From assembly GCA_002402455.1 (NCBI GenBank), contig DHFX01000006.1:20408-84407 (forward strand): a DNA stretch of 64,000 nucleotides, read 5' to 3'. This DNA is from Candidatus Dojkabacteria bacterium UBA4813 (GTDB taxonomy: Bacteria; Patescibacteriota; Dojkabacteria; SC72). The translations under genes were made by a program, and so were the position numbers. Under the pieces are notes generated by a model that did not search any database, had not been told where the DNA came from, and saw nothing but the letters and a program-made list of their open reading frames with translations. Numbering within the stretch: position 1 is the stretch's first letter; the number at the start of each line of letters is the position of its first letter. Below, in pieces: positions 32,163-61,174 of the stretch.

Positions 32163-34493
32163 ATGTTACAAGAATCCACGCAAAATTCTAGAGAAGGAAT
32201 AAATATCTCAACCATACAGAAGTTTCTATTCAAAGGGCTATTATTTTTGCTCCCTCTAACTATTTTCCCCTTCCCTTGGGATTGGACAGAAAGAGGAATG
32301 TCTCTGTTGATACTCTTTGTTTCAACAGTAATCTTGGGTTTAGAGGTTATAAAGCTTCTCTGGGGAGGTACTTTCAGTATTCTAAAGAGTTCAATAGATA
32401 TAGGTTTTTTTCTAATCTTGTTCTCATATTTGTTGTCAACAATCTTCTCAGTAGATATAAACACTAGTCTATGGGGAATCGATGGAAGGTTGGGAAGTGG
32501 ATTAATTGTGTTTATTGCTGTTTTATTAGTAAGTATAGTCGCAAGAGGATTTATAAAAGGGGAAAAAGATGTTCGTTCTCTCATATTTATTTTTTTAATT
32601 GGCTTCTTTATTAATAACGTGTTGAGCTTGTTCTCTTTCTTCGGGTTTAATGTTTGGGGATTTATTCCTGTTTATAAAGACTTATATCAAGCAGGATTGC
32701 CTCTGTTAAGATTTGGAGGTGTCCATCTTCTTGTAAATTTTGTTAGTCTAATTCTTTCTCTAGGACTAATAGGTGAATATCTAATAAGTCAGAAAAGAAA
32801 GGTAGAATTTATAATGTCCATAATTTTTGGACTTTTTTCTGCAATAAATGTCTGGGTATTTTCTATCAATGAGGGTTTGGTAACAATCTCCGTTCTATTA
32901 GTTCTATTGATAGGATTATTGATCCCAGTGCTGAAATTTATAAAAATAGATAAAGAAACCTCGCGTCAGGTATTTCTTCTCTCTTTAATAACTGTTTTTA
33001 TAGTCATTATTCCCGTAATTTTCTTGCAAATTCCGAACATTAGGGAATCTATTTTACCTAAAGATTTAGAGGTAGTTTCCGAGCTTTCTCTCGGATTTGA
33101 CCTTTCTTGGAAGATTTTTGCTTCTACTATTGTTAATGGATTTGTACCGGGATTCTTAGGATATGGTTTGGGAACATATCCGATTGCATATAATAAATTC
33201 AAACCGTTAGATACAGGGCTTCTTTCTTTAGGGGACTCTACTTTTCAAATGGGGGTAAGCGAGGTTCTTACAAAAATTACTACTGGGGGATTTCTGTGGT
33301 TTTTTGTTTGGCTCTTTGTAGGGTTTTTAATAATCAAGTCTTTCATAAAGGATCTTAAGGATGCAAGAGAAATAAATGACACTAGTGGAGCTTGGAGATT
33401 TTTAATAATAGATGTTACATTACTGGTATTATTCGTTGCCTCTTTCTTCTTTTCATTTACTGTTTTAATAACTTTCTTACTACTAACTTTGGTTTCCATC
33501 CGGTCAATAATAAGAGAATATTTAAAGGGTTCTCCTGGGGATAAATTCATATTAAAGTTCTGGGCTGTTAATTTGGATAGTCTATCTAGTGGAAATAAGT
33601 CTTTATACAACTTTAATATTTTTCTGACGGTTATTGTCGCTATCATATCCGTATTTTTACTCGGAGTCTGTTTCACAAAAACAGTATCAAGCTTCCATGT
33701 TTTAGGGGCTGAGGCATACTCGATTAGAGAAAATAGAAAATATCAGGACGATCCGGAGGCTCAGCCAACACTTGAGGAAAGAGAGAAATTTGCGCTAGAG
33801 GTAGATAACTATTATTCTAAGGCTTTAGCTCTAGATGAGGATAACCCTTTTTACAATAGAAAGAAGGCGCTTATTCTACTAGAACAGTTGGGTGTTGTTG
33901 CAGAGGCATACTCTAAGATACCCGAAGAAGATACGGAACAGAGAGACCAATATCTACAAGCAATTATGACTCTTAAGAACAATGCCGTGGAATTCGCAAG
34001 AAAAGCAACAGATATCTCTCCGGCTGTTTATGCTAATTGGCTGACAAGATCAACAGTTTATACTGGTCTGGTGGGAGCAGGTTTTGATGAGCATATATCT
34101 GATGCTATAAATTCATTAGAGATGGCAATAACTCTCAATCCTCTTAACTACCAACTTTACAATACACTTGCCCAAGTTTATATAGTAAAAGGGGATCAAG
34201 CAGTTGCACTACAGTATCTATTAGAAGTTCTTCGTATTAATCCGAGACATATTCCTTCTATACTTCTAGCTGCAGACTTAAGTAAAGAAGCAGAAGATAT
34301 GGAGTCATATGTAGCTTACCTAGAGGCAGCAAAATTGATCCTTGAACAGGAAGAAGCTACGGAACTGGACCTTTACCAAGAAGTACTTACTGCTCTTGAG
34401 GAAGCTGATGCTGGGGATGTAGAATTACCAAAGGAACCTGAAGAAGGTGGGGAGGTAGGGGTACCAGAGCCGGATTCGGAGGTTTCTGAATAG
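32163..34493 (+). CDS. polytopic membrane protein with C-terminal TPR repeats (O-antigen ligase/Wzy_C-like architecture)
   Basis: About 12 TM helices in the first ~500 aa, then TPR-like helical repeats and an acidic tail (EEADAGDVELPKEPEEGGEVGVPEPDSEVSE). The family call is by architecture only. Confidence 0.45.
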   Translation: MLQESTQNSREGINISTIQKFLFKGLLFLLPLTIFPFPWDWTERGMSLLILFVSTVILGLEVIKLLWGGTFSILKSSIDIGFFLILFSYLLSTIFSVDINTSLWGIDGRLGSGLIVFIAVLLVSIVARGFIKGEKDVRSLIFIFLIGFFINNVLSLFSFFGFNVWGFIPVYKDLYQAGLPLLRFGGVHLLVNFVSLILSLGLIGEYLISQKRKVEFIMSIIFGLFSAINVWVFSINEGLVTISVLLVLLIGLLIPVLKFIKIDKETSRQVFLLSLITVFIVIIPVIFLQIPNIRESILPKDLEVVSELSLGFDLSWKIFASTIVNGFVPGFLGYGLGTYPIAYNKFKPLDTGLLSLGDSTFQMGVSEVLTKITTGGFLWFFVWLFVGFLIIKSFIKDLKDAREINDTSGAWRFLIIDVTLLVLFVASFFFSFTVLITFLLLTLVSIRSIIREYLKGSPGDKFILKFWAVNLDSLSSGNKSLYNFNIFLTVIVAIISVFLLGVCFTKTVSSFHVLGAEAYSIRENRKYQDDPEAQPTLEEREKFALEVDNYYSKALALDEDNPFYNRKKALILLEQLGVVAEAYSKIPEEDTEQRDQYLQAIMTLKNNAVEFARKATDISPAVYANWLTRSTVYTGLVGAGFDEHISDAINSLEMAITLNPLNYQLYNTLAQVYIVKGDQAVALQYLLEVLRINPRHIPSILLAADLSKEAEDMESYVAYLEAAKLILEQEEATELDLYQEVLTALEEADAGDVELPKEPEEGGEVGVPEPDSEVSE

Positions 34494-39875: not shown

Positions 39876-40340
39876 TTATTTTTTACTAGAGATAATGTCT
39901 ATCCAATTATCCTTTAGCCAAGTATCTGCTTTCTCTTGTTCCTCTAACAACCCTCTCTTTGCTAATTCCTTATCTATAACATTCCCTTGATGGGGATTCT
40001 TAAACCTCTTCTGAAGAGGGGAACTAAAACCATGTGTGTAATGACATAGTTCATGAGCAATAGTTGCTCTAATAACAAACTCAGGAATATTCTCATCTTG
40101 GAAATATCTTGTAATGGTTATTACAGTAATACTCTTGTCATCTTGTATTTCATAATCTTCTCTCATTCTTCTTAGCAATCCCTTGATTCTAGTTCTTTCT
40201 GTTGCGAGCTTAATACTTCCTAATTGTCTTTGGGAATATTTCCCATACTTGATTAGAACTAAATTCCTCCTAGGAACATCACAGAAATGATTCTCCCAGA
40301 GTTCATACAATAAATTTTCTAAAAATTTCTCATTTCTCAT
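39876..40340 (-). CDS. putative zinc metallohydrolase (DUF45/YgjP/WLM-like, HExxH)
   Basis: IAHELCHYTHG is an HExxH motif in a ~150-aa protein with the conserved basic N-terminal region seen in YgjP-type proteins. Confidence 0.55.
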   Translation of the reverse strand: MRNEKFLENLLYELWENHFCDVPRRNLVLIKYGKYSQRQLGSIKLATERTRIKGLLRRMREDYEIQDDKSITVITITRYFQDENIPEFVIRATIAHELCHYTHGFSSPLQKRFKNPHQGNVIDKELAKRGLLEEQEKADTWLKDNWIDIISSKK

Positions 40341-42245: not shown

Positions 42246-43100
42246 ATGAAGATCATAGATGGAAAACGCACATCACAGAAGATACTAGATAATATCTCCT
42301 CAAAGATTGAGAGGGTTGTTTTAGACGGAGAAAAAGTCCCCAGATTGGACCTGATTTTAGTAGGAGATGATTTTGCAAGTGTTAAGTATGTTCAAATTAA
42401 AGAACAAAGGGCAAGAGAGTTAGGAATAGATTGTCAGACACATCACTTGAAGGAGGATTCAACAACTGAGGAAGTTGTAAATCTTGTTAAAACTCTAAAT
42501 GCCTTTAATGAAGTAGACGGTTTTATGGTTCAATTACCTCTACCTAGTCATATAGATACAAACGTTGTTTTGGAAAGTATAGAGCCGAGAAAGGATGTAG
42601 ACGGATTAACCTCAGTTAATTTAGGCAGACTCTTTCAGAATGACCCAAAAGCTATTCCTCCGGCAACTCCTCTTGGGATAATGAAACTCCTAGATGAATA
42701 CAAAATAGATGTATTCGGCAAAAGGGTTGTTATCCTCGGAGCTAGTAACATAGTAGGAGTTCCCCTAAGTGCCATGTTATTAAGAAGAGATGCTACGGTA
42801 ACTATATGTAACTCTAAGACTGCTAATATACAAGAAATTGCAAAGACAGCAGATATTCTAATATCCGCAACAGGAGTTCCTCTTTTAGTTAATTCGGAAT
42901 TTCTTAAAGAAGGGGTTGTTGTTATTGATGTGGGTTCAAACAAGCATCCAAAGACAGGGAAATTAGTAGGAGATGTGGATTGGGAAGATGTACAAGGGAT
43001 TCCTTCGTACATAACACCCGTTCCCGGTGGGGTTGGACCGATGACGGTAGCTTCTTTAATGCTAAACTTAATGAACTGCTATGAACAAAATAAAAGATAA
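42246..43100 (+). CDS. folD: bifunctional methylenetetrahydrofolate dehydrogenase/cyclohydrolase
   Basis: IIDGKRTSQKIL...LILVGDDFASVKYVQIKEQ and the GASNIVGVPLSAMLL Rossmann region. Confidence 0.85.
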   Translation: MKIIDGKRTSQKILDNISSKIERVVLDGEKVPRLDLILVGDDFASVKYVQIKEQRARELGIDCQTHHLKEDSTTEEVVNLVKTLNAFNEVDGFMVQLPLPSHIDTNVVLESIEPRKDVDGLTSVNLGRLFQNDPKAIPPATPLGIMKLLDEYKIDVFGKRVVILGASNIVGVPLSAMLLRRDATVTICNSKTANIQEIAKTADILISATGVPLLVNSEFLKEGVVVIDVGSNKHPKTGKLVGDVDWEDVQGIPSYITPVPGGVGPMTVASLMLNLMNCYEQNKR

Positions 43101-44334
43101 AGAGATATTTACATACCTAGAGGAAGAGAAAAAAAGGCAATTGGAAGGTTTAGAGCTAATAGCTTCAGAGAACTATGTGTCTGAGGATGTCCTTGCATGT
43201 ATGGGTTCCATTCTAACAAATAAATATTCCGAGGGTTATGTCGGAAAGAGATATTACAAAGGAAATCAGTATGTAGATGAAATAGAAAAATTAGCAATAG
43301 AAAGGGCTAAAGAACTTTTTAAGGCAGAGCATGTAAATGTACAACCATACTCTGGTTCTCCTGCTAATCTGGCTGTTTACTTTGCATTATTGCAACCAGG
43401 AGATAGGACTTTGGGAATGTCCTTAGATGCAGGTGGTCATTTAACCCATGGATTTAAGGTTTCCATATCCGGTAAATATTACAACTCTGCAAGTTATGGA
43501 GTTGACGACAGTGGTTACATAGATTACGACCAGGTAAGAAAATTAGCGAAAGAGCACAAACCAAAATTAATATGGGCAGGTTTTTCTGCGTATTCAAGAA
43601 TAATAGATTGGTCAGAATTTAGAAAAATAGCAGATGAAGTCGGAGCGTTTCTTGTTGCAGACATAGCCCATGTGGCCGGTCTAATCGCAGCAGGTGATTA
43701 TCCGTCTCCTGTAGGGATAGCAGATGTGGTTACTACAACCACTCATAAGACTCTAAGAGGTCCTAGAGGGGCTATGATTATGTCAAAGGAAGAATTCGGG
43801 GAGAAGATAGATAAAGCGGTCTTCCCAGGCCTTCAGGGAGGTCCTCACAACCATATAACAGCCGCCATAGCAGTTGCTCTAAAAGAAGCATCAACAAAGG
43901 AATTCAAACAGTATTCTAAGCAAGTTATTAAAAACGCAAAGGTTCTATCAGAGGAACTTATGAAAAGAGGTTACAAAATTGTTTCTGGAGGAACAGATAA
44001 CCATCTTTTCTTAGTAGATTTATCTAATTCAAAAGGTTTGAAAGACCTCGGAGGAGAGGAAGCATCTACCTTGTTAGAAGAAGCAAACATTACATTAAAC
44101 AAGAACGCTATCCCCAATGATCCCAGAAAACCATGGAATCCTTCCGGACTTAGAATTGGGACTCCTGCGTTAACGACTAGGGGAATGAAAGAGAAGGAGA
44201 TGTTTAAGGTAGCGGAATATATAGATACTGTATTAAAAAACAGAGATGATAAATCCCTAATTAAGAAAATAAGAAAAGACGTTAAACAGTTTGCCTCTAA
44301 GTTCCCAATTCCAGGGATAAATAGTAGAAATTAA
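43081..44334 (+). CDS. glyA: serine hydroxymethyltransferase
   Basis: LELIASENYVSEDVLACMGSILTNKYSEGY and the PLP-binding TTTTHKTLRGPRG. Confidence 0.9.
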   Translation: MNKIKDKEIFTYLEEEKKRQLEGLELIASENYVSEDVLACMGSILTNKYSEGYVGKRYYKGNQYVDEIEKLAIERAKELFKAEHVNVQPYSGSPANLAVYFALLQPGDRTLGMSLDAGGHLTHGFKVSISGKYYNSASYGVDDSGYIDYDQVRKLAKEHKPKLIWAGFSAYSRIIDWSEFRKIADEVGAFLVADIAHVAGLIAAGDYPSPVGIADVVTTTTHKTLRGPRGAMIMSKEEFGEKIDKAVFPGLQGGPHNHITAAIAVALKEASTKEFKQYSKQVIKNAKVLSEELMKRGYKIVSGGTDNHLFLVDLSNSKGLKDLGGEEASTLLEEANITLNKNAIPNDPRKPWNPSGLRIGTPALTTRGMKEKEMFKVAEYIDTVLKNRDDKSLIKKIRKDVKQFASKFPIPGINSRN

Positions 44335-44364: not shown

Positions 44365-45960
44365 ATGAAGTTAAGCTTTAGAAAGGATTTACATATTGCT
44401 ACTTTAAGATCTGAATCTTCTTGGAATAGATTTAGGGTACAGACGTTGCTTCAAGATACAGAGAGAAAACAGCCATCTATTAATGCTTATCTGGGAGCAA
44501 GATATAGTAGGTCTGCGGATTCCATTTTAGATATAGCCTCTGAGATTATGAGGGAGAGTACGGATGCAGCGGAGAAGTTAGAAAAAATATTCGCAGGTTA
44601 TGGTCACAAATCTGTAGGAGATATGGCAGATCTTTTTGTCTGTTTAGAAAATGTACCAATATATCTTGAAACAAAAATGTTTTATTCTTGTCCGGTAATA
44701 TCTGGGCAAGGTAGGTCTACTAGATACCAGAACTTTCAAGATCCTAACTTCGTCAAAATTCCTAATGAGGTTTGTGATAACCACGAAGTTAGTAGAGAGT
44801 ATGAGAGGATAATGCTAAAGCAGATTAAAGATTACAGGGAGATGCTAGGTCCTACTAGAGATGCCCTTAAAAAATACTTTAGGATAAATGAGGAGAGTAG
44901 TCAGGAGGTTTCTGCTCTAAAGGCAAGGGCATTCGATACTACTAGGTATTTTTTACCGTATGGTTTGAGTACAAGTAGTGCTTATTTAATGTCAGCAAGA
45001 AGTTGGTCTGATGCCATCAGCTTTATGTGTGCAAGTGATACTGTGGTAGAAAATGAGGTTGCAAGTATGCTTCTTAATCTTCTAGGTGAATCTAAACTTA
45101 ATGCAAGGGGTTATATCAGAGAAGCAGATGGACTAATTAGGCATACGGATGCAAATTGTTGTAGAAAAAACTCAACAGAAAGAATTATTGAGTATATGAA
45201 AGAAAGTTTCTCTTCAGAGCAAAAGAGGGAGATTCCTGAGAGTGAAAGTTATTCTGTCAAGGTATCTTATTCTCCCGATTGTATGGAGTCTTTGGTCTCC
45301 CATTATGAATATTTAATAAACCCATTGGGTTCTAAAGAGGAGTTTGAATTCTCTGAGGAGGATCAGGAGAGATTTGGGGAAATAATATTTGAATTACATG
45401 ACCATCATAGCCAGCTTGGGAATATTGGTCAGTCTGGAGCAATAAAGATAGAGGGGTTTGCTTCACTTGGAACGCTAAAAGATCTTAATAGGCATAGGAG
45501 TTTTGAGAGGTTTATTCCTTTTCTACATGAGCAAGTGGATATGGATAAAGAGTTAGACAGGAGGAGTGACCAGTGTTTCTATCTTTGTAATTATTTGGAT
45601 ATAGGGTCTCTTTCTAAGGTTAAGAAGGAGTATATAAAGAGATTATCTGATACGTACGACAGGATAAAGGGTTGGAGGGAGATGGCAAAGCAACATCTTT
45701 CCAAAGAGGTGTGCGATGAATTTACAAAGTATTTGTTACCTCATGCGCATGCAACTAAGTATATATTTTACGGATCGTTCGATGATTTACAATATCTGAT
45801 AAACTTAAGAAGTAGAAATGGTGGACATATCTCTTATAGGGTTTTAGTCTACGAATGGTTAAGGAATCTCAACTATATTGATCCTATTTGGAGACCATTA
45901 TTAAGAAAGATTATAGAGCCAAGAATAGATGACAAGCATCAGTTTGTAGATAGGAGTTAA
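44365..45960 (+). CDS. thyX: flavin-dependent thymidylate synthase-like protein, apparent tandem (double) ThyX domain
   Basis: The first half carries GYGHKSVGDMADLFV...STRYQ, which aligns to the ThyX HGHETPFEH...SGRYS block but lacks the RHR motif. The second half carries NRHRSFERF (RHR) without the S-x-RY block. At 531 aa it is about twice the canonical ThyX length. Confidence 0.5.
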   Translation: MKLSFRKDLHIATLRSESSWNRFRVQTLLQDTERKQPSINAYLGARYSRSADSILDIASEIMRESTDAAEKLEKIFAGYGHKSVGDMADLFVCLENVPIYLETKMFYSCPVISGQGRSTRYQNFQDPNFVKIPNEVCDNHEVSREYERIMLKQIKDYREMLGPTRDALKKYFRINEESSQEVSALKARAFDTTRYFLPYGLSTSSAYLMSARSWSDAISFMCASDTVVENEVASMLLNLLGESKLNARGYIREADGLIRHTDANCCRKNSTERIIEYMKESFSSEQKREIPESESYSVKVSYSPDCMESLVSHYEYLINPLGSKEEFEFSEEDQERFGEIIFELHDHHSQLGNIGQSGAIKIEGFASLGTLKDLNRHRSFERFIPFLHEQVDMDKELDRRSDQCFYLCNYLDIGSLSKVKKEYIKRLSDTYDRIKGWREMAKQHLSKEVCDEFTKYLLPHAHATKYIFYGSFDDLQYLINLRSRNGGHISYRVLVYEWLRNLNYIDPIWRPLLRKIIEPRIDDKHQFVDRS

Positions 45961-46000: not shown

Positions 46001-46564
46001 ATGATTCTTTCGGATAGGACAATAAAAGCCAAATTAAAGAGCAAGGAGATTGTAATAGAGCCTTTTTCGGAAGAGTTTTTACAGCCCGCATCTTATGATT
46101 TGCATCTAGATAAGTTCTTTCTTATTTTTAATAAGGAGAGTGTGGGGATAGTGGATGTTAAAGATAAGCCTAAAAATCTGATGAAGGAGATAGAGGTTGA
46201 TGAAAAGGAGGGTTTTATTATTCATCCAAGTGAATTTGTTTTAGCTAATGTTAAGGAGATTACGGGTGTTGACTCCAAGCATGTTGGTCGTTTAGAAGGA
46301 AAGAGCTCTTTGGGAAGATTGGGACTAATAGTGCACGCCACTGCAGGATTTTTAGACCCCGGTAACAAATTAAGGTTAACTCTTGAATTGGCAAATGTTT
46401 CTCCAATTCCAATAAAAATATATCCTGGAATGAAGATTGCACAGATAGCCTTTGAGACCTTAGACAAAGAGTGTGAGAGGCCATATGGCAGTAAAGATCT
46501 TAATAGTAAGTACCTAGGAGATCTTAGGGTTAAAGGTAGTGAAATATGGAGGAACTTTGAGTAA
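46001..46564 (+). CDS. dcd: dCTP deaminase
   Basis: MILSDRTIKAKL...IEPFSEEFLQPASYDLHL matches the Dcd/dUTPase-fold N-terminus, and the GRSSLGRLGL-type block is present as GKSSLGRLGL. Confidence 0.8.
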   Translation: MILSDRTIKAKLKSKEIVIEPFSEEFLQPASYDLHLDKFFLIFNKESVGIVDVKDKPKNLMKEIEVDEKEGFIIHPSEFVLANVKEITGVDSKHVGRLEGKSSLGRLGLIVHATAGFLDPGNKLRLTLELANVSPIPIKIYPGMKIAQIAFETLDKECERPYGSKDLNSKYLGDLRVKGSEIWRNFE

Positions 46565-46587: not shown

Positions 46588-47730
46588 TTACATTGTTGGA
46601 GGTACGGGAGGGATCTCCTCTGGAGTATTATCTGTATCTTGGTTTTGTTGTGATGTTATTGGTGGCATATGTGGTTGTGGGCGTTCAGGCATGATATTCT
46701 CAGGGGTTTCCTGTTGTGGTGAAACAGAAAATCCTGTAGAGAAAGGAACATTCTGGTTAGGTTGTGGAGCCTGCGGAGTGCTATCTCCCATAGCTGTTGG
46801 AATAGAGGATTCCCTTTGAAGAATTTCCTGCAAATCCTCTTCTTGAGAGGCACTCGAAATTGGGGGGGTATTTTGTTGTGGAGGTGTGTATATGGGTTGT
46901 TCTGGTGTCGGTTGTGTATTTTGACTCATTGGTGTTGGGGGAGTCACTTCTGCTGGTGGTGGTGTGGTCTGTGTCGGTGCACTATTAGGATTATTTACCA
47001 TATCTCTGAGAAATGTTTCACTCTGTTGCTCCGGTTGTATTACGGGAGGAATCTGGTTTTGTTCTGCTTTCTTTACCTTAGGCTGTTTTGGTTCTTTGTC
47101 CTTCCTGAGCAGTAGAACCACTATGCTAATAAGTAAGATTACGGATCCTGCAATTAATATGTATGGTAAGTAGTTAGTTATACTGTCTAGTAAACTTGTT
47201 TTTGTTGTTGTAGTTGGTTGTTCTGTTGTTACAGCTGGAGTCTCCTGTACAGTTGGAGTTTCAGTAGCTGTCGGTTGTGTATCTTCTGTCGTGGATACAG
47301 TATTTGTTTGTTCAAAACTGACGGTTTCTCCCAGAGTAAGGGTACCAAGATCTAAATCGTCGGATTCAACCACTTCAAAAGTTGTAGGGGTATCTCCCGT
47401 GGAGGTAAATGCAATATTAGCCAGTACTCCATTTAGTGCTGTTGCTGAGTCCAATTTACATGTTACCAGTATGGTGTTTACAGTCCCTTGGGATTCGGTA
47501 TAACTTAACTCTGAACAAGCAACATCTCCGTCTGTAACATCCGTTATTTCAACACCGTCTGAATAGCTTATTGGAAGGGTAACACTTTCTAGGGTATCAG
47601 TCTCTGTATCTATCCCAATTGCTACATTCCCAGTTTCACCTTCTCTAAGTGTTATATTTACGGCAGCATATGTTGCGAACGGGAACATAAAGACAATAAA
47701 AGAGACCAAAAGGGAATATATTTTTTTCAT
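46588..47730 (-). CDS. single-pass surface protein: signal peptide, beta-rich ectodomain, Thr/Pro stalk, TM, Pro/Gln-rich cytoplasmic tail
   Basis: MKKIYSLLVSFIVFMFPFATYA signal peptide. A TTEDTQPTATETPTVQETPAVTTEQPTTTT stalk. TM helix LPYILIAGSVILLISIVVLLL. A ~170-aa P/Q/T-rich C-terminus. Confidence 0.5.
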   Translation of the reverse strand: MKKIYSLLVSFIVFMFPFATYAAVNITLREGETGNVAIGIDTETDTLESVTLPISYSDGVEITDVTDGDVACSELSYTESQGTVNTILVTCKLDSATALNGVLANIAFTSTGDTPTTFEVVESDDLDLGTLTLGETVSFEQTNTVSTTEDTQPTATETPTVQETPAVTTEQPTTTTKTSLLDSITNYLPYILIAGSVILLISIVVLLLRKDKEPKQPKVKKAEQNQIPPVIQPEQQSETFLRDMVNNPNSAPTQTTPPPAEVTPPTPMSQNTQPTPEQPIYTPPQQNTPPISSASQEEDLQEILQRESSIPTAMGDSTPQAPQPNQNVPFSTGFSVSPQQETPENIMPERPQPHMPPITSQQNQDTDNTPEEIPPVPPTM

Positions 47731-47860: not shown

Positions 47861-49093
47861 ATGGAATATTCTAATAATTATAACCAAACAAATCACCCTG
47901 TTGTTAATGACAGTCTTGAGGAGAGTTTAATGGAGGTTAAGGCACTTGAGGTAAAGTTATCCTCTACAAATCTTCCGGAAAAGTTGAGAGAAGAGACAAT
48001 GGTGAGGGTGTCGAGGCTTGGAAGAATGTTTAAATTGGGTGGATATAGTGCAGAATTTGAAACAGTCAGTAAATATATAGACTGGATCACAAGGATTCCT
48101 TGGGGTGTAGTAAGTGAAGACAATTTGGATATCCATAGGGCAAGGGAGGTTATGGATGAAACTCATCATGGAATGGAAACTATTAAGGATTTGATTCTGG
48201 ATTATATTGCAACCATGCAATTACAAAGTGTTGGGGGAGTGGAAAGATTAAGAGGAGACGTTATCCCTTCGCAAGTGCAATATCAGAATAGTATCTCCCA
48301 AGTACCCCATAACAGACCAATTGGGCAAGGAGTTCAAATGGGAGTACTAAAAAGTCATGTGGCTAATGCTCCTGTCTTTCTTTTTCTGGGCTTGCAGGGT
48401 GTAGGAAAGACCTCTATTGCAAGGTCTATAGCTCAGTCTATGGGTAGGAAGTTTTCCCGTATATCTTTAGGGGCTATTGGGGATGTTAGAACACTAAGGG
48501 GAGCACCCCGGTATTCTCCGGATGCTGAACCTGGTCAAATAATTAAGTCTTTGGTTAGGTGCGGAACCATGAATCCGGTGATATTATTGGATGAGATAGA
48601 GAAAGCTAGTGGAAATAAAGGACTTCTTAGTGATATTATGGCTGCACTTCTTGAAATATTAGACCCTGAGCAAAACTCTACATTTGTAGATCACTATATT
48701 GATTATCCGGTAGACCTCTCTAATGTCTTCTTCATATGTACAGCGAATAATTTAGGTGGTCTTTCTGCAGCACTATTGGATCGTGTGGAAGTTATTCGTT
48801 TTACCAGTTACTCTGATCAGGAGAAGGAAGTAATTGGTAAGGAATATATCCTACCCAGAGTTCTTGAAGATCTTAACATATCTCCTGAATATATAAGGAT
48901 AGAGGAGGAGGTGTGGCCGTTGATAATTAGACCTGTTGGGTTTGATGCTGGTATTAGACAGTTAGAAAGGAATATTACAACGATTGTAAGAAGTGCAGCT
49001 AGAATGATTGTTGAAGGGAAGCCACTTCCTATCGTCATAAATAGCTCCAACCTAACCGATTATGTCCTAGCTGATCAGGGACCACTAAGTTAG
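47861..49093 (+). CDS. Lon-family AAA+ ATPase module lacking both the N-terminal substrate domain and the S16 peptidase domain
   Basis: It aligns by eye to E. coli Lon residues ~250-600: YIDWITRIPW, DETHHGMETIKDLILDYIA, Walker A GLQGVGKTS, Walker B ILLDEIEK, LDPEQN, LLDRVEVIRF. The ORF stops exactly where the Lon protease domain would begin, and a convergent gene follows. Confidence 0.7.
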   Translation: MEYSNNYNQTNHPVVNDSLEESLMEVKALEVKLSSTNLPEKLREETMVRVSRLGRMFKLGGYSAEFETVSKYIDWITRIPWGVVSEDNLDIHRAREVMDETHHGMETIKDLILDYIATMQLQSVGGVERLRGDVIPSQVQYQNSISQVPHNRPIGQGVQMGVLKSHVANAPVFLFLGLQGVGKTSIARSIAQSMGRKFSRISLGAIGDVRTLRGAPRYSPDAEPGQIIKSLVRCGTMNPVILLDEIEKASGNKGLLSDIMAALLEILDPEQNSTFVDHYIDYPVDLSNVFFICTANNLGGLSAALLDRVEVIRFTSYSDQEKEVIGKEYILPRVLEDLNISPEYIRIEEEVWPLIIRPVGFDAGIRQLERNITTIVRSAARMIVEGKPLPIVINSSNLTDYVLADQGPLS

Positions 49094-49123: not shown

Positions 49124-49381
49124 TTATATTCCTCTAAATGGATTTGAAAGTCTCAGAGAGTCGGCAGCTTTTCTGACTTTAGAGCTCTCCATCCTTCTAG
49201 GAGTAGTTGATCTGTTTTGTTGCTTCTCTTCCGCTTTTGATAATAGGTAAAGGTCCATTCCTTTCTGGATTGGGTCTATCTTTTGAGGATTAACAGCTTC
49301 TGTTACTAGATAATTAGAGACTTCGACATTGTTATTGTTCGTATTAGAGTTGCTCATTCTTATCCTCCGGATAACTTTCAA
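49124..49381 (-). CDS. small Asn-rich hypothetical protein (85 aa), doubtful
   Basis: Overlaps the 3' end of the VirB4 gene by 38 nt in another frame and is low-complexity (NSNTNNNN). It may not be a real gene. Confidence 0.2.
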   Translation of the reverse strand: MKVIRRIRMSNSNTNNNNVEVSNYLVTEAVNPQKIDPIQKGMDLYLLSKAEEKQQNRSTTPRRMESSKVRKAADSLRLSNPFRGI

Positions 49382-51818
49382 TTAAACCTTGTGGAGTCAG
49401 ATGTTCTTTCCCCTTCTGGATATCTTTGCGAGATTGCACTGCCTGACCGGAGAGGGTGTTACTCTTAATTCTATCTAAGATTCCCTTTTCCATTTCGGTT
49501 TTATCAGGACTTAATTGTTCTTCTTGTTCTTTTAATCTCTTTTCTAGTTCTTTTTGGTATTCTGCTCTCTCCATCTGTATGGTGCTTCTTTGTCCCTGTG
49601 TTCGTTTTACAGCTTCTTCAATAATTTCTTCCTGTCTTGCCATTTCTTCTCCATTTTTCATTGGTCTTTGTTCTGTCGGAGGTTCATATATTTCAGATAA
49701 TTGTTCTAAAGTTCTGGTATCTGGCTGACCCTCTCTTGTTTTAAGCTTTTCTAAATCTCTAGGGTCAGAAGTTATTAATTCATGTTCTGATACGCTGGAC
49801 AGTACTTGAATTCCCACGTGGTTTGAGCCTGCAAAGAAGAGTCCTTGTCCTTGATCACAGTTAAGGAGGAAGTTTTTTTCTCCATCTGAGAGATTAAAGA
49901 CCTCTTGTAGTTTTTCTACTGCTGTTGGACTTTGCATCATGAGCATTTGTATGGAAGAGTTTGAAATTATTGCCTTACCCATGTCATTGTTTAGGAAGTC
50001 CGCAACATCCTGAGTTATTGTGGACAGACCAAGGTAGTATTTCCTTGCTCTTTTTGCTATAGAGTACATAAATTTAGCAGAGTCTTCGGACTGCATCATA
50101 TACCAAGCCTCATCTACTATGAGTAGTCTTCTTTTTCTCTCCTTTCTAATCTTAGTCCAAATGAAGTCTAGCATTAGATACATAGCAAGGGGTTTTAATT
50201 CTTCCTGCAGGTCTCTAACACTAAAGACTGTAAATGGATTGTCTATCTCAAAGTTGCTTGCCTCATTGAAAACTCCGGCACCACTACCAATAATATATTT
50301 TTCCAATCTTCTTGCCAGACCATGTGCTTCTGTTTCTGCCATTCCCTTTAAGACTTTATATAAATCTTCAAGGAGTGGAGGAGTTTTAGTTTGAGTGTTA
50401 GGGTCGAATGTTATTCCTTTCTCACGATATGTGAGTATGAGAGCTCGATCCAGAATAGAGCTCTCAATATTGCTAAGTTCTCCAAGCATAACTTTGAAGA
50501 AACCTTGTAAAGCCAAGAGTTTCATTCTTAATTCATCATCTCCTTCTTCTGTCACACCGGAGAGTTCGAAAGGATTCATTTTATTTCCTTTGTCTTGTGA
50601 GAAGGAGATGTAGGCACCATTAACGGCTTTAGCTAAACTCTCGTACTCCCTTTCTGGGTCAATTATTAATATTTCTGTTCCCAACATTAGACTTCTTACG
50701 GCCTCGAGCTTAACGAAATAGCTCTTACCCGCACCGGATTTTGCAAAGACTACTGTGTTAGCATTTTCTAGTTCAAAGCGATCGAAGATTACCAAACTTC
50801 TGTTGTGTAGGTTTAATCCGTACATAATTCCATGATCCATGGTAAGTTCAGATGTAACAAAGGGAAAAGTTGTTGCGAGAGAAGTAGTATCCATATTTCT
50901 AGTTATGTACATACTATCTAGTCCGAGGGGTTGGCAACTTATGAATCCCTGCTCCTGTTGTAAGGTTGCAGGTTTTGCAGTTACGTTTATTGCGGCTAGA
51001 GTTGATGTGACATTCCTGGAAATTCTCTCAAGAGTATCTTTGTCTTTTGCATAGAGGGTTATATACATTGAGAAGTGGAAAAATTTTTCTGTTCCCTCTG
51101 CAATAGAATCCTGTAACTGCTGAGCATCTGCGAGTGCCACTTTTAGTGAAGGGTCTATAACTTTCCTTTCTTCCATTTGAGAATAAAGGGTAGCTTCCAT
51201 CTCTCCGATTTTCTTTTTGAGTTTTTCTAAAATAGTTTTGTTGTCTACCGGATAATAGAAGGTACTGATTCTTAATGAGTGTTCGAAGTTGATTATGGGG
51301 GAGAGCCAATTAGGACCAACAAATCTTGGGTATCCACTCACAAATAATGTTTTGAAGAAGTAATCTCCTATTTGTAAGTTGTTAAAATCCACTTCTAGGT
51401 CTATTGGGGCAATGATGTCTTGTATAGACATATCCGAAGGAATTAATTTCCTAACACTATGTGGGTCGTTATTTACATATCTGGTTTCCCAAGAACTTTC
51501 TTCTTCAGTTGTTTCTTCTTTAGATTTTTTCTTGTTAGAGTGCCCGAGTAGTTCGGTAACGTTATCCATGACATTTGTGATAATATTCCCTTTTTTCTTT
51601 TTTTCCTCCTCTTCTAGAGATTTTGTATCATTGTATCTGTCCTCCTTTCCCTCGGGGATGTTTTTAGCTTCCTCTTTAAGTTTTGAAACTTCCTGTCGGA
51701 ATGAGGCATACTTTTCACCGGTTGTTTTAAACTTTTCGGTTTGCTGTTCCAACTTTTGAGTTGTCTTTGTTTCCAGTTGTTTGTTGTAGTTGTTGTAGTT
51801 ATTATTTATGCCATCCAT
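49344..51818 (-). CDS. virB4: VirB4/TrbE/CagE-family type IV secretion ATPase
   Basis: Walker A FAKSGAGKSYFVK and Walker B LLIVDEAWYMM. A Gram-positive-type VirB4 N-domain block (GDYFFKTLFVSGYPRFVGPNWLSPIINFEHSLRISTFYYPVD). Preceded by a ~120-aa charged low-complexity N-terminal extension. Confidence 0.85.
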   Translation of the reverse strand: MDGINNNYNNYNKQLETKTTQKLEQQTEKFKTTGEKYASFRQEVSKLKEEAKNIPEGKEDRYNDTKSLEEEEKKKKGNIITNVMDNVTELLGHSNKKKSKEETTEEESSWETRYVNNDPHSVRKLIPSDMSIQDIIAPIDLEVDFNNLQIGDYFFKTLFVSGYPRFVGPNWLSPIINFEHSLRISTFYYPVDNKTILEKLKKKIGEMEATLYSQMEERKVIDPSLKVALADAQQLQDSIAEGTEKFFHFSMYITLYAKDKDTLERISRNVTSTLAAINVTAKPATLQQEQGFISCQPLGLDSMYITRNMDTTSLATTFPFVTSELTMDHGIMYGLNLHNRSLVIFDRFELENANTVVFAKSGAGKSYFVKLEAVRSLMLGTEILIIDPEREYESLAKAVNGAYISFSQDKGNKMNPFELSGVTEEGDDELRMKLLALQGFFKVMLGELSNIESSILDRALILTYREKGITFDPNTQTKTPPLLEDLYKVLKGMAETEAHGLARRLEKYIIGSGAGVFNEASNFEIDNPFTVFSVRDLQEELKPLAMYLMLDFIWTKIRKERKRRLLIVDEAWYMMQSEDSAKFMYSIAKRARKYYLGLSTITQDVADFLNNDMGKAIISNSSIQMLMMQSPTAVEKLQEVFNLSDGEKNFLLNCDQGQGLFFAGSNHVGIQVLSSVSEHELITSDPRDLEKLKTREGQPDTRTLEQLSEIYEPPTEQRPMKNGEEMARQEEIIEEAVKRTQGQRSTIQMERAEYQKELEKRLKEQEEQLSPDKTEMEKGILDRIKSNTLSGQAVQSRKDIQKGKEHLTPQGLIESYPEDKNEQL

Positions 51819-58981: not shown

Positions 58982-59384
58982 AAAAAAGAAAGTTTACATC
59001 TTATCTGTTATGGCACTTTTGTTTCTAGCCTCTGGTCTTTTTTTGTTGTTTTCAAAGGGTGCTGATGAGTTAGAGGTGAAGGGTATAGCTGAAAAGGATT
59101 GTGTCCCATATAATATTTTTGTTATGCCGGGTGAGAATGATTATTCGGTTGATATATCTTGGAAGACGAGGTCTGAATGTCTAGGTTTTGTACTCTATGG
59201 TCAGAATAGAGGTAATTTAGATATGGTCGGGGTTGATCTTGTGAATAAGAGTAGTGCGAGGGATCATAGTGTGACAATTGATGGTCTTCTTAGGAAAGAG
59301 AGATATTATTTCTTAGTAAATTCACAGGATCAAGCTTATGGAGATAATGGCTCGCCTCTAGAATTTGTTATAGAGGATCTTTAA
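58971..59384 (+). CDS. small exported protein with FN3-like domain
   Basis: N-terminal anchor (VYILSVMALLFLASGLFLLF). The FN3-like strand pattern has a conserved W (DISWKTRSE) and Y (ERYYFLVNS). Overlaps the upstream gene by 11 nt. Confidence 0.4.
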   Translation: MPNKKKKVYILSVMALLFLASGLFLLFSKGADELEVKGIAEKDCVPYNIFVMPGENDYSVDISWKTRSECLGFVLYGQNRGNLDMVGVDLVNKSSARDHSVTIDGLLRKERYYFLVNSQDQAYGDNGSPLEFVIEDL

Positions 59385-61174
59385 GATTTCTTTTTCTTGT
59401 TTTTAGATACTTTTCTTACTAGTTTTGTTTCAAAGTACTTTTTGGGTTTGAATATTCTCCATGAGAACACCTCTGCTTCTTTGTAAGGTTGAGAGTTTAT
59501 TAACTTTACCATCATTGCTTGACCCATAGGTCTTGAGTAAATGTACCAACCGACTAGTACGGTAATAATCCCTAAGAGTATTCTTCCGATTACAGAATCG
59601 AAGATTCCTGTCTCGGGTGTTGTTTCAGAATCTGGTTCTTCAACAACTGGAGGAGTTTCCTCACTTGGTTGAGTACAACTTTGTGCTACATTTAGGACAA
59701 GTTCGGCTCTAAGTGTTTCTGGATCAGTTGGTATCTCTGCAGGTGTTATTACCACTTCATTCTGATTTTCTCCTGTTATTGCATCTTCACCTGCTTCCGA
59801 CATAAAGAGTATTGTTAATGATTGACCACTATTTACAGACCAACCTCCCGTTTTCTCCCAAACTATTTCCTGAGTATCTCCAATGTCTGTTATTGTTACA
59901 AATTCCGTGTCTTCTACTTTAACCCCATTTATCTTTGTCGAATCTGCTACGTATGTAAAACCGAGTGGTAGTTTGTCCTTAACTGAATAGATTATTTGAG
60001 CTGTGGTGCTGTCATTAACTGTTTTTAAAGTAAATTCTGCGACATTATTGGGTGTTACTCTTTCAACACAAGTTACATTCGAGGTCTTAGAAACCCTAAA
60101 TTTAGATTCTTGTGCTTGTTGTAATTCTTCGGAGGTAGGCTCTATTTGTGGGAAGTTAAAGGAGGTACTTACAGTACCTATAACTTCTGTGTCTGATCTG
60201 ACTTCCGCTGTTATTTCTATGTTTCCGACTTTTTTATCAAGTTGAGAAAAATTTAGATCGGTACTGAAGTTTTCACTATTATAAAGATCTTGCTCCAGTA
60301 TGGATATCTCACCCTTAGCACTATCTATTGTAAAACCATCTGTCATTGAAAGATCACCAGCCTCTGAATCCTCTAGTTTAAAGGAGAATCTTATTGTTAA
60401 TTGTGTACTATCTTCAATGTTTCCGATTCCTATTTTAATTGTAGAAACTTTGTAAGTGTCTTCAGCCTTTCTAGTTTGGACTTGTATGCTACTAACACTT
60501 GCAGAAGTTGTTTGTTCCACCTCTATAAGTCTTCTACAGATAGGGGAGTTTATTTGATTTGCACTGGCATCTGACGCTGTTGCAAAGATCTCTATGGTTG
60601 AGGTATCTAATTCGGTGTATGTTTTTGTTATGGTTAAGGAGTCTGGGGATATCGAGTCCGGTTGCACCTCTTGATTATTGATTACAAATTTGTGGTCCGT
60701 ATAGACATCGTCGAATTTCGCCTCAATAGTAAGCTCTTTCTCGTTTAGCGGAATTTTCCCTGTAACAATCTTCCCAGAGCTATCCTTTATTGTCATTTCG
60801 GTACATCTGCTATCTTGTACCACTGGTATAGTACAGATCTGGTAGAGGGCTTGCTGTGTTGTGCTGTTCAGTAGATTTGTTGAAAGGTTGTCAACAGAAC
60901 AAGGTGCACTACAAGTTTGGTCGCTAGGGACAGTATTTAATTCGAAGGAAAAACCTCTTCTAGGATCTCCACATTCTGGTACAACTTCTGGATCGATGTA
61001 ATAACAGGCACAGGTTGTCTCTGTTACGATTTGTTCTTTTGCTGGTTCTTCAAGGGTATAAAAATAAACTGCTGAGACAATAAGCCCTATGCCTAGAATA
61101 GCGGCGATTATGATTAATAAAGTAGTACTTTTTTTCTTTTCACTTGTGGTGGGAATCCTTCTAACTTCTTCCAT
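59381..61174 (-). CDS. large surface protein with N- and C-terminal TM anchors, Cys-rich module and DUF11-like repeat
   Basis: N-terminal signal anchor, a Cys-rich stretch (TTCACYYIDPEVVPECGDP...CSAPCS) and a DUF11-type motif (KDKLPLGFTYVADSTKINGV). A C-terminal TM helix is followed by a basic tail (KVSKNKKKKS). Confidence 0.5.
   Translation of the reverse strand: MEEVRRIPTTSEKKKSTTLLIIIAAILGIGLIVSAVYFYTLEEPAKEQIVTETTCACYYIDPEVVPECGDPRRGFSFELNTVPSDQTCSAPCSVDNLSTNLLNSTTQQALYQICTIPVVQDSRCTEMTIKDSSGKIVTGKIPLNEKELTIEAKFDDVYTDHKFVINNQEVQPDSISPDSLTITKTYTELDTSTIEIFATASDASANQINSPICRRLIEVEQTTSASVSSIQVQTRKAEDTYKVSTIKIGIGNIEDSTQLTIRFSFKLEDSEAGDLSMTDGFTIDSAKGEISILEQDLYNSENFSTDLNFSQLDKKVGNIEITAEVRSDTEVIGTVSTSFNFPQIEPTSEELQQAQESKFRVSKTSNVTCVERVTPNNVAEFTLKTVNDSTTAQIIYSVKDKLPLGFTYVADSTKINGVKVEDTEFVTITDIGDTQEIVWEKTGGWSVNSGQSLTILFMSEAGEDAITGENQNEVVITPAEIPTDPETLRAELVLNVAQSCTQPSEETPPVVEEPDSETTPETGIFDSVIGRILLGIITVLVGWYIYSRPMGQAMMVKLINSQPYKEAEVFSWRIFKPKKYFETKLVRKVSKNKKKKS

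What the first reader, a model, noticed from the sequence alone, without database searches (positions are those of the whole stretch)
44365..45960. Thymidylate synthase ThyX-like protein of double length with complementary motif loss in each half
Canonical ThyX is ~220-250 aa, carries RHR and S-x-RY within one chain, and builds active sites across subunits of a homotetramer. This 531-aa ORF looks like two ThyX-like halves. Half 1 keeps the GH[KE]SV ... STRYQ block but has YSC where RHR is expected. Half 2 has NRHRSFERF but not the S-x-RY block. A fused, mutually complementing pseudo-dimer would be an unusual ThyX architecture, and it sits exactly where a thymidylate synthase is expected (after folD-glyA, before dcd).
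Basis: partly seen in the sequence, partly recalled or inferred. Interest (0 to 1): 0.6.

Follow-up and report, generated by a model that had tools for sequence, protein, structure and literature searches.

The report
Double-length ThyX thymidylate synthase, split active site
This gene encodes a thymidylate synthase (ThyX) built from two fused, diverged copies of the enzyme that each keep only half of the catalytic residues; the design is real and neat, but it belongs to a large family that databases already label ThyX.

Summary
ORF 44365-45960 (+) encodes 531 aa. Both halves match Pfam Thy1/PF02511 above its cut-off, and predicted structures match only solved ThyX enzymes.

Half 1 keeps GHKSV, S118-T119-R120-Y121, R194 and R212, but has Y107-S108-C109 where RHR should be. 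Half 2 keeps R376-H377-R378 and R482 and has no S-x-RY loop.

These losses fit the published three-subunit ThyX active site. Half 2 supplies the subunit-A residues and half 1 supplies the subunit-B and subunit-C residues. A dimer of this protein should therefore form a pseudo-tetramer with two intact and two dead sites. That step is inferred, not shown.

The gene sits in a folD-glyA-thyX-dcd cluster that is conserved across Dojkabacteria. Adjacency to dcd persists in relatives at about 24-30% identity.

The architecture is not rare. At least 1,188 protein clusters (50% identity) match, nearly all of those listed 500-620 aa. They come from candidate-phyla-radiation (CPR) bacteria, Woesearchaeota, Ktedonobacteria, Limisphaerales and Bdellovibrionota, and from Microcystis phage Ma-LMM01 (gp020, annotated thymidylate synthase). 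The same complementary pattern is nearly invariant across them.

Verdict: an ordinary member of a widespread, already-annotated double-length ThyX subfamily. I found no open-access description of its split-site logic.

The parts
44365..45960 (+). Complete ORF of the double-length ThyX (531 aa plus TAA stop).
   Evidence: ORF list. PF02511 scores 75.5 bits in two stretches. 273 homologues, nearly all of those listed the same length.
44365..45084 (+). Half 1 (aa 1-240). A ThyX-like domain that keeps the subunit-B and subunit-C residues and lacks RHR and the Tm R174 equivalent.
   Evidence: PF02511 52.2 bits, profile positions 2-173 of 191. HMM alignment to Mtb and Tm ThyX. Conservation counts.
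44602..44616 (+). GHKSV (H81, S83). Equivalent to Mtb H69/S71; S71 binds the FAD phosphate from subunit B.
   Evidence: Aligned to Mtb 'GHFSV'. Residue role from PMC6514825. H81 is conserved in 128/129 and S83 in 127/129 distant relatives.
44683..44691 (+). Y107-S108-C109, the degenerate position where canonical ThyX has RHR.
   Evidence: Alignment. Across 129 distant relatives the commonest residues here are N/Y at 107 and assorted non-basic residues at 108 and 109; Arg is not among the five commonest at any of the three positions, and the family consensus shows no RHR.
44701..44730 (+). SGQGRSTRYQ, the dUMP-binding loop. S118/R120/Y121 correspond to Tm S88/R90/Y91. G116 replaces the family's usual Glu (the Tm E86 position).
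   Evidence: Alignment to Tm 'ELSGRYS' and Mtb 'SQLSQRYV'. S118 and R120 are each conserved in 128/129. G116 is shared only with the 92%-identical P0001.
44926..45006 (+). R188, D191 and R194 (R194 = Tm R147), plus S210-A211-R212 (R212 = Tm R165 = Mtb R190, which binds the FAD phosphate from subunit B).
   Evidence: R194 in 125/129, R212 in 115/129. Role.
45085..45258 (+). Inter-domain linker (aa 241-298). It contains a strongly conserved extended motif, aa 248-272 (nt 45106-45180): RGYIREADGLIRHTDANCCRKNSTE. Canonical ThyX has no such motif.
   Evidence: The model shows no regular secondary structure at 241-264. The motif is 80% identical across 57 relatives, against 65% for the two domains. 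L257 is conserved in 126/129; R/K259 and H/Y260 are also conserved.
45259..45957 (+). Half 2 (aa 299-531). A ThyX-like domain that keeps the subunit-A residues and lacks the S-x-RY loop and the Tm R165 equivalent.
   Evidence: PF02511 27.8 bits. Model of this half alone has pLDDT 92.1, and all 50 listed Foldseek hits are ThyX-family chains (including the ThyX-fold methylase PolB), TM about 0.45-0.57.
45478..45519 (+). KDLNRHRSFERFIP. R376-H377-R378 is the RHR motif that binds FAD and dUMP. K372 corresponds to Tm R74. The following segment has no S-x-R.
   Evidence: Aligned to Tm 'ARQWFRHR'. R376 in 128/129, H377 in 115/129, R378 in 121/129. Positions 384-390 are variable, with no Ser/Arg pattern.
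45805..45840 (+). LRSRNGGHISYR. R482 corresponds to Tm R174 / Mtb R199, the subunit-A arginine that binds uracil.
   Evidence: Aligned to Mtb 'AMRASEHADVEIR'. R482 is conserved in 128/129. Role.
45940..45957 (+). C-terminal tail QFVDRS. R530 is nearly invariant and canonical ThyX has no counterpart. Its role is unknown.
   Evidence: R530 in 128/129 and F527 in 117/129 distant relatives.
42246..43100 (+). folD (methylene-THF dehydrogenase/cyclohydrolase), first gene of the one-carbon/dTMP cluster.
   Evidence: PF02882 203 bits and PF00763 116 bits. The same order is kept in about 30 Dojkabacteria loci.
43081..44334 (+). glyA (serine hydroxymethyltransferase), which regenerates the CH2-THF that ThyX consumes.
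   Evidence: PF00464 558 bits. Conserved position.
46001..46564 (+). dcd (dCTP deaminase family), which supplies the deoxyuridine nucleotide precursor of dUMP.
   Evidence: PF22769 160.6 bits. A dcd homologue lies in 46 of 80 related loci, nearly always next to the ThyX gene, and also in the 24%-identical locus L082.

Best explanation
[quoted passage not shown] It is built from an ancient tandem duplication-fusion of the ThyX domain, followed by complementary loss of catalytic residues. In a canonical homotetramer, each active site draws on three subunits. Subunit A gives RHR and the Tm R174 arginine. Subunit B gives the GHxS serine and the Tm R165 arginine, which bind the FAD phosphates. Subunit C gives the S-x-R-Y loop that binds dUMP. 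Here half 2 can play only role A, and half 1 can play only roles B and C. Two chains should therefore assemble into a pseudo-222 'tetramer' of four domains, in which the two half-2 domains are related by the true two-fold axis. That leaves two complete active sites, each made of one half 2 plus both half 1 domains, and two degenerate sites. The prediction is about one FAD per 531-aa chain. The enzyme works inside a folD-glyA-thyX-dcd operon that supplies both of its substrates. Shown here: domain homology, fold, residue pattern, family-wide conservation and gene linkage. Inferred: the dimer-of-tandems assembly, the two-plus-two site count and the enzymatic activity.
For: Both halves match PF02511 above its cut-off. 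The two halves are homologous to each other (hhalign 92%, E 7e-8). The confident model matches only ThyX-family structures, and so does half 2 modelled alone. Residues were mapped with HMM alignments to Tm ThyX (sequence verified as 100% identical to 1kq4/1o26) and to Mtb ThyX (sequence recalled from memory and not checked against the PDB; its numbering agrees with the review). Subunit roles come from PMC6514825 section 3.1 and PMC3498832. In 129 distant full-length relatives (24-47% identity), the retained residues are nearly invariant: H81 128, S118 128, R120 128, R376 128, R378 121 and R482 128. The lost positions show no canonical pattern. Both halves are under equal constraint. The folD-glyA-thyX-dcd order is conserved in about 30 Dojkabacteria loci. 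Adjacency of dcd and thyX is kept in Parcubacteria, Pacebacteria and SR1 at about 30% identity and in L082 at 24% identity, where DHFR is also nearby. Sources name the protein 'FAD-dependent thymidylate synthase' or 'thymidylate synthase ThyX'. Phage Ma-LMM01 gp020 is a full-length homologue (E 3e-55) and is co-expressed with ribonucleotide reductase and dUTPase.
Against: NCBIfam's ThyX equivalog model TIGR02170 scores only 35.8 bits against a cut-off of 87.9. Plain sequence searches find no solved ThyX, so the family is very divergent. This particular protein has Gly at position 116, where 99/129 relatives have Glu (the Tm E86 position). The conserved linker motif and C-terminal tail have no assigned role. 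Many relatives keep Lys or Arg at the R174 position of half 1 (89/129), so the 'dead' sites may not be equally dead across the family.
Confidence: 0.78

Rival explanations
1. The protein has the ThyX fold but a different job. It could be a flavin- and folate-dependent methylase or hydroxymethylase acting on another pyrimidine nucleotide (UMP, dCMP), as PolB does in polyoxin biosynthesis. The true thymidylate synthase would then be elsewhere in the genome, or absent.
Against: All residues that contact dUMP and FAD in canonical ThyX are kept across the two halves. Linkage to dcd, glyA and folD is conserved over very deep divergence and fits dUMP-to-dTMP chemistry. No antibiotic-biosynthesis context is present. 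No thyA or canonical thyX was found in the window or in 80 locus flanks, although that covers only a small part of each genome.
Confidence: 0.08
2. Only one domain matters catalytically. The other is a degenerate scaffold, and the protein assembles differently, for example as a tetramer of fused chains with eight domains. The complementary pattern would then be a coincidence of relaxed selection.
For: The oligomeric state was not tested. Half 2 matches ThyX only weakly (27.8 bits; TM about 0.5).
Against: Neither half alone has a full set of active-site residues, so neither can form a site without the other. The retained residues in both halves are about 99% conserved across relatives at 24-47% identity, and both halves have the same overall conservation. 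That is not relaxed selection.
Confidence: 0.08
3. Artefact: two adjacent thyX-like genes were joined by a sequencing or assembly error, or the gene is a decaying pseudogene.
For: A few relatives look degenerate. P0065 and P0126 have lost most catalytic residues. Some loci give only partial matches (L039, L042, L044).
Against: The uninterrupted ~531-aa reading frame recurs in over a hundred independent assemblies, including isolates (Dictyobacter) and a finished phage genome. The window copy keeps all key residues except E116.
Confidence: 0.02

Closest known systems
Canonical flavin-dependent thymidylate synthase ThyX/FDTS (Pfam PF02511, TIGR02170, EC 2.1.1.148), e.g. Thermotoga maritima TM0449 (1o26), M. 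tuberculosis Rv2754c (2af6/3gwc), PBCV-1 A674R (2cfa/4fzb)
   Same: Same domain family and fold in both halves. The same set of FAD- and dUMP-contacting residues is present overall. It has the same metabolic neighbourhood of one-carbon and deoxyuridine supply.
   Different: The canonical enzyme is about 190-260 aa and carries RHR...S-x-R-Y in one chain, forming a homotetramer with four identical sites. Here two diverged domains are fused (531 aa) and the motif is split between them: RHR and R174 only in half 2; S-x-R-Y, GHxS and R165 only in half 1. The protein also has a conserved linker motif and a conserved C-terminal tail. It falls below the TIGR02170 cut-off and has no detectable sequence match to solved ThyX by phmmer.
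Double-length ThyX subfamily already in databases: Microcystis phage Ma-LMM01 gp020 (YP_851034.1, 491 aa, 'thymidylate synthase') and the 'FAD-dependent thymidylate synthase' proteins of Candidatus Dojkabacteria, Microgenomates and Pacebacteria
   Same: gp020 aligns over nearly the whole length (residues 33-530; E 3e-55, 29% identity) with the same split motifs: YGHGSV and GQERSTRYQ in half 1, GLIRH in the linker, NRHRS and GGHINYR in half 2. Dojkabacteria proteins are 57-92% identical and of the same length. The window protein is a plain member of this group.
   Different: The window protein has G116 instead of the family's Glu, and Cys instead of Lys/Arg at position 222. No member was found to be described biochemically or structurally in the open-access literature I searched. 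Many members, such as those of Ktedonobacteraceae, are still labelled 'hypothetical protein'.
Chlamydia trachomatis ThyX (Griffin et al. 2005, J Biol Chem 280:5456). This is a lead from memory only.
   Same: From my own recollection, not tested here: chlamydial ThyX proteins are about 529 aa, roughly double length, and the C. trachomatis enzyme is an active FDTS. PMC6171736 notes that chlamydial ThyX were left out of the original phylogeny for lack of sequence identity. PMC3498832 used purified C. trachomatis ThyX in activity assays.
   Different: I could not obtain a chlamydial sequence, so I do not know whether it belongs to this subfamily or shows the same complementary pattern.
PolB, the ThyX-fold UMP/dUMP C5-methylase of polyoxin biosynthesis (4p5a)
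   Different: PolB is a single-domain protein in an antibiotic gene cluster. The gene here sits in a housekeeping folD-glyA-dcd context.

Membership tests
ThyX / FDTS (PF02511 Thy1) | Significant match to the Thy1 domain model above Pfam's gathering score. | tested here: met
   Whole protein 75.5 bits in two stretches. Half 1 alone 52.2 bits and half 2 alone 27.8 bits, against a cut-off of 24.8.
ThyX / FDTS (PF02511 Thy1) | [quoted passage not shown] | tested here: met
ThyX / FDTS (PF02511 Thy1) | ThyX signature RHRxxSxxxxSxR(Y) within one domain. | tested here: not met
   Half 1 has YSC...STRY and half 2 has RHR with no S-x-R. The signature exists only when the two halves are combined.
ThyX / FDTS (PF02511 Thy1) | A full complement of FAD- and dUMP-binding residues (Tm R78/H79/R80, S88, R90, Y91, R147, R165, R174; Mtb S71). 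| tested here: met
   All are present once each across the two halves: R376/H377/R378, S118, R120, Y121, R194, R212, R482 and S83.
ThyX / FDTS (PF02511 Thy1) | NCBIfam equivalog TIGR02170 above its cut-off. | tested here: not met
   35.8 bits against a cut-off of 87.9.
ThyX / FDTS (PF02511 Thy1) | Four-domain 222 assembly with active sites shared by three subunits. | not testable with these tools
   Only single-chain models are offered and no coordinates are returned. A dimer of tandems is inferred from the residue roles.
ThyX / FDTS (PF02511 Thy1) | Bound FAD, and NADPH- and CH2-THF-dependent conversion of dUMP to dTMP. | not testable with these tools
   This needs biochemistry or genetic complementation.
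ThyX / FDTS (PF02511 Thy1) | Genomic association with dUMP and one-carbon supply, and absence of thyA. | tested here: inconclusive
   The folD-glyA-thyX-dcd linkage is conserved. No thyA or canonical thyX was found in the window or in 80 flanks, but whole genomes could not be searched.
Double-length ThyX subfamily (Ma-LMM01 gp020-like) | Alignment over both domains, the linker and the tail with known members of similar length. | tested here: met
   273 homologues, nearly all of those listed ~531 aa. 1,188 representative clusters, of which nearly all of the 150 best listed are 500-620 aa. gp020 gives E 3e-55 over residues 33-530.
Double-length ThyX subfamily (Ma-LMM01 gp020-like) | Subfamily signature residues: SR48-49, GHxS, GQERSTRYQ, R188/D191/R194, LIRHT linker, DLNRHR, RxGGHIxYR and the C-terminal DRS. 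| tested here: met
   All are present, except that E116 is Gly and K/R222 is Cys.
PolB-type UMP/dUMP methylase | Location in a nucleoside-antibiotic biosynthetic cluster and a single-domain architecture. | tested here: not met
   The neighbours are housekeeping genes: folD, glyA, dcd, an ABC transporter, rpoBC and dnaK. The architecture is tandem.

The most novel reading that the evidence does not exclude
The two degenerate sites, the invariant linker motif (Y250...E253...L257-I258-R259-H260-T261) and the invariant C-terminal R530 are not just relics. In this reading they form a new functional surface, for example a dedicated docking site for the reductant (NAD(P)H or a small redox protein) or an allosteric nucleotide site. 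That would separate the reductive and methyl-transfer half-reactions, which compete for one pocket in canonical ThyX. No such mechanism is described in the open-access papers I could search, and the subfamily is present across CPR bacteria, DPANN archaea, Ktedonobacteria and cyanophages.
Probability: 0.12. Interest if true: 0.6.

Novelty: new member of a known kind. Interest (0 to 1): 0.35.

Why it matters
This is a clean natural example of duplication, fusion and complementary degeneration in an enzyme whose active sites are shared between subunits. A homotetramer with four sites has become, by inference, a dimer of fused pseudo-dimers with two sites.

The subfamily appears to be the thymidylate synthase of many ultra-small CPR bacteria and DPANN archaea, and of some phages. 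It is divergent enough that equivalog models miss it, and some genomes list it as 'hypothetical protein'. Recognising it therefore improves metabolic reconstructions of dTMP synthesis.

ThyX is an antibacterial drug target. A variant with fixed asymmetric sites could also be useful for mechanistic work on which subunit contributes what. For this window specifically, the finding is an ordinary, correctly guessed gene.

Tried and rejected
- **Sequence searches against PDB.** A phmmer search with the protein found no ThyX. A family profile gave only marginal ThyX hits, E about 0.1. I relied on Pfam, fold comparison and my own HMM alignments instead.
- **AlphaFold-database fold search.** The library was not available.
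- **Genome scan with the most diverse alignment (A3).** A4 worked but used a stringent pattern, so the taxon list is a lower bound.
- **Checking whether the characterised Chlamydia ThyX is the same double-length type.** Literature searches gave no statement on its length. Griffin 2005 and Leduc 2004 are not held. Cluster look-ups of 20 distant representatives and a profile search from non-CPR members surfaced no named chlamydial protein. This stays a recollection only.
- **Literature on fused or tandem ThyX.** Searches found nothing.
- **Alignment run.** The first MAFFT run timed out and was repeated with faster settings.
- **Assembly artefact or pseudogene.** Considered and rejected because the reading frame is conserved.
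- **PolB-like alternative substrate.** Considered and rated low because of the genomic context.
- **Promoter and terminator scan.** Nothing above chance around the cluster.
- **Model coordinates.** They are not exposed, so packing of the halves could not be inspected.
Full report
**Observation.**
The ORF is exactly as reported: 44365..45960 on the + strand, ATG to TAA, 531 aa. The window is a low-GC (about 36%) bacterial chromosome carrying rpoB, rpoC, dnaK, groEL, leuS, metG, dnaG, ftsK and lepA. The closest relatives of the ORF come from Candidatus Dojkabacteria and other candidate-phyla-radiation (CPR) bacteria. The flanking genes are folD (42246-43100), glyA (43081-44334) and dcd (46001-46564), all with strong Pfam matches.

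**Is it two ThyX domains?**
- Pfam Thy1 (PF02511) matches the whole protein in two stretches (75.5 bits).
- It also matches each half on its own. Residues 1-267 score 52.2 bits (E 8.6e-14, profile positions 2-173 of 191). Residues 268-531 score 27.8 bits (E 2.6e-6, profile positions 66-190). The cut-off is 24.8.
- Profiles of the two halves, built from 39 diverse family members, align to each other with 92% probability (E 7e-8, 212 columns). The internal duplication is therefore detectable, although a direct BLAST of the halves is not significant.
- An AlphaFold model from 58 homologues is confident (pLDDT 89.8, pTM 0.90). The high pTM indicates that the relative placement of the halves is also confident.
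- Foldseek against the PDB returns only ThyX enzymes in its top 50 (probability 1.00, TM 0.56-0.69 normalised to the target).
- Half 2 modelled alone (pLDDT 92.1) also hits only ThyX-family chains, at TM about 0.45-0.57. It has the same fold but is more diverged.
- Plain sequence searches do not reach solved ThyX structures, and the NCBIfam equivalog TIGR02170 scores 35.8 bits against a cut-off of 87.9. The family is a remote branch of ThyX.

**Residue map.**
I aligned T. maritima ThyX and M. tuberculosis ThyX to HMMs of each half. The T. maritima sequence was verified as 100% identical to 1kq4/1o26. The M. tuberculosis sequence was recalled from memory and was not checked against the PDB; its numbering agrees with the published residue numbers.

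| Feature (canonical numbering) | Half 1 | Half 2 |
|---|---|---|
| GHxS (Mtb H69/S71) | kept: H81, S83 | HDHHS (aa 345-349) aligns here; H347 pairs with H81 in the half-to-half alignment, position 349 is variable |
| dUMP loop (Tm S88/R90/Y91) | kept: S118, R120, Y121 | lost: positions 384-390, no Ser/Arg pattern |
| Tm R147 | kept: R194 | not conserved (K455) |
| Tm R165 / Mtb R190 | kept: R212 | lost: D473 |
| RHR (Tm R78/H79/R80) | lost: Y107-S108-C109 | kept: R376-H377-R378 |
| Tm R74 | not conserved | kept: K372 |
| Tm R174 / Mtb R199 | lost: C222 | kept: R482 |

The review PMC6514825 (section 3.1) describes each canonical active site as built from three subunits:
- RHR and Mtb R199 come from subunit A.
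- Mtb S71 and R190, which bind the FAD phosphates, come from subunit B.
- S105/R107/Y108, which hold dUMP, come from subunit C.

PMC3498832 independently places Q75 and the R174 equivalent on one monomer and the S88 loop on another. So half 2 retains exactly the A-role residues, and half 1 retains exactly the B- and C-role residues.

**What follows (inference).**
In a 222 tetramer the four sites use the subunit triples (A,B,C), (B,A,D), (C,D,A) and (D,C,B). Suppose A and D are half-2 domains and B and C are half-1 domains. Then sites 1 and 4 are complete and sites 2 and 3 lack everything. A homodimer of the fused chain, whose true two-fold axis relates the two half-2 domains, gives this arrangement. 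The result is two working sites, each needing half 1 from both chains, and two dead ones. This predicts a dimer of about 124 kDa with about one FAD per chain. I could not inspect model coordinates, so this geometry is untested.

**Not a peculiarity of this genome.**
- A search of 5.8 billion proteins finds 273 homologues. Nearly all of the 120 listed are 528-536 aa. Those with names are called 'FAD-dependent thymidylate synthase' or 'thymidylate synthase ThyX'.
- An exhaustive search of 1.84 billion cluster representatives finds 1,188 at E <= 1e-3 and 130 at E <= 1e-30. Nearly all of the 150 best listed are 500-620 aa.
- A scan of species-representative genomes finds the family in Dojkabacteria, Pacebacteria, Parcubacteria, SR1, Limisphaerales, Bdellovibrionota, Chloroflexia, the cultured genus Dictyobacter and Woesearchaeota.
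- In Ktedonobacteraceae the protein is mostly labelled 'hypothetical protein'.
- It also occurs in cyanophages. Microcystis phage Ma-LMM01 gp020 (491 aa, annotated thymidylate synthase) aligns over residues 33-530 (E 3e-55) with the same split motifs. It is expressed with ribonucleotide reductase and dUTPase (PMC5780444).
- Across 129 distant full-length representatives (24-47% identity), the retained residues are almost invariant: H81 128, S83 127, S118 128, R120 128, R194 125, R376 128, R378 121 and R482 128. The RHR position of half 1 and the loop position of half 2 show no canonical pattern.
- Both halves are equally conserved among 57 closer relatives, at 65% mean identity each.

The complementary degeneration is therefore ancient and under selection.

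**Function.**
- The order ABC transporter-folD-glyA-thyX-dcd is conserved in about 30 Dojkabacteria loci.
- A dcd homologue lies in 46 of the 80 related loci, nearly always adjacent to the ThyX gene. In Parcubacteria, Pacebacteria and SR1 it is upstream, at only about 30% ThyX identity.
- A 24%-identical member (P0260) is followed by dcd and a DHFR gene.
- dcd supplies the deoxyuridine nucleotide, and glyA and folD supply CH2-THF. This linkage fits dTMP synthesis.
- No thyA or canonical thyX is present in the window or the flanks.

I put 0.78 on a working flavin-dependent thymidylate synthase with the split-site architecture. The alternatives and their weights are:
- About 0.08 on a ThyX-fold enzyme with another substrate (PolB-like).
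- About 0.08 on a different assembly in which one domain is only a scaffold.
- About 0.02 on an artefact or pseudogene.

**Unexplained features.**
- The linker has a motif (aa 248-272, RGYIREADGLIRHTDANCCRKNSTE) that is more conserved than either domain (80% against 65%) and is predicted to lack regular structure.
- The extreme C-terminus (QFVDRS) carries a nearly invariant R530 (128/129). Canonical ThyX has neither feature.
- The window protein and its 92%-identical relative have Gly at position 116, where 99/129 distant and 53/58 close relatives have Glu, the Tm E86 position.
- Many relatives keep Lys or Arg at the R174 position of half 1 (89/129), whereas this protein has Cys.

**Comparison with what is known, and novelty.**
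This is ThyX by domain, fold, residue set and context. It fails the single-chain signature and the equivalog score, and it belongs to a double-length subfamily that databases already call ThyX. From memory only, chlamydial ThyX (about 529 aa; an active enzyme, Griffin et al. 2005) is also double length. I could not obtain a sequence or text to test this.

In the open-access literature available to me, I found no description of the tandem architecture or of the complementary split. That absence is weak evidence, given how much of the ThyX literature is not held.

The window gene is thus a new member of a known kind.

Noticed in passing
window 44710-44712 (codon 116, GGT): The window protein has Gly where the family almost always has Glu in GQERSTRYQ, the position of T. 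maritima E86. Only the 92%-identical homologue P0001 shares it. Three other close relatives have Gln or Ala.
   Followed up: partly
window 45106-45180 and 45940-45957: There are two strongly conserved elements with no counterpart in canonical ThyX. One is the linker motif RGYIREADGLIRHTDANCCRKNSTE, which is 80% identical across relatives and more conserved than the domains. The other is the C-terminal QFVDRS, whose R530 is nearly invariant. Their role is unknown.
   Followed up: partly
proteins P0065 (Dojkabacteria, 63% identical) and P0126 (39% identical): These full-length relatives have lost most catalytic residues. In P0065, GH becomes RQ, STRY becomes SPKY and RHR becomes SFR. They look like decaying or repurposed copies, which suggests the gene is dispensable in some CPR lineages.
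   Followed up: no
L081 1408-2883 (Microcystis phage Ma-LMM01 gp020, NC_008562.1 15717-17192): A cyanophage carries the same double-length, split-motif ThyX (491 aa). Related Microcystis and Microcoleus phages do too, and in some of them it is annotated only as a hypothetical protein.
   Followed up: partly
proteins P0280, P0310, P0341 and other Ktedonobacteraceae hits: In cultured Dictyobacter species and in Ktedonobacteraceae MAGs, the double-length ThyX homologue (about 576 aa) is labelled 'hypothetical protein' or 'Uncharacterized protein' in NCBI and UniRef. This is likely under-annotation of their thymidylate synthase.
   Followed up: no
L082 8001-12117: A 24%-identical family member (P0260, no Pfam hit on record) is followed by dcd, a small ORF, a DHFR gene and a HhH-GPD glycosylase. 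A heliorhodopsin gene lies nearby. The source organism is unknown.
   Followed up: no
window 49344-51818 (-): This 824-aa protein has TraG P-loop and TraC/VirB4-like domains. It is probably the ATPase of the type IV secretion or conjugation-like system described in Patescibacteria.
   Followed up: no
window 47861-49093 (+): This 410-aa AAA+ protein has a Lon lid domain but no Lon protease domain detected. It may be a stand-alone Lon-like ATPase.
   Followed up: no
window 46588-47730 (-), 32163-34493 (+) and 59381-61174 (-): Three sizeable ORFs (380, 776 and 597 aa) have no Pfam match. The 380-aa one has an N-terminal hydrophobic segment, a central membrane-spanning stretch and long Thr/Pro/Gln-rich low-complexity regions, so it is probably a surface protein.
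   Followed up: no
window 39876-40340 (-): This 154-aa ORF contains an HELCH motif, which suggests a small zinc metallopeptidase. It has no Pfam match at E <= 1e-5.
   Followed up: no
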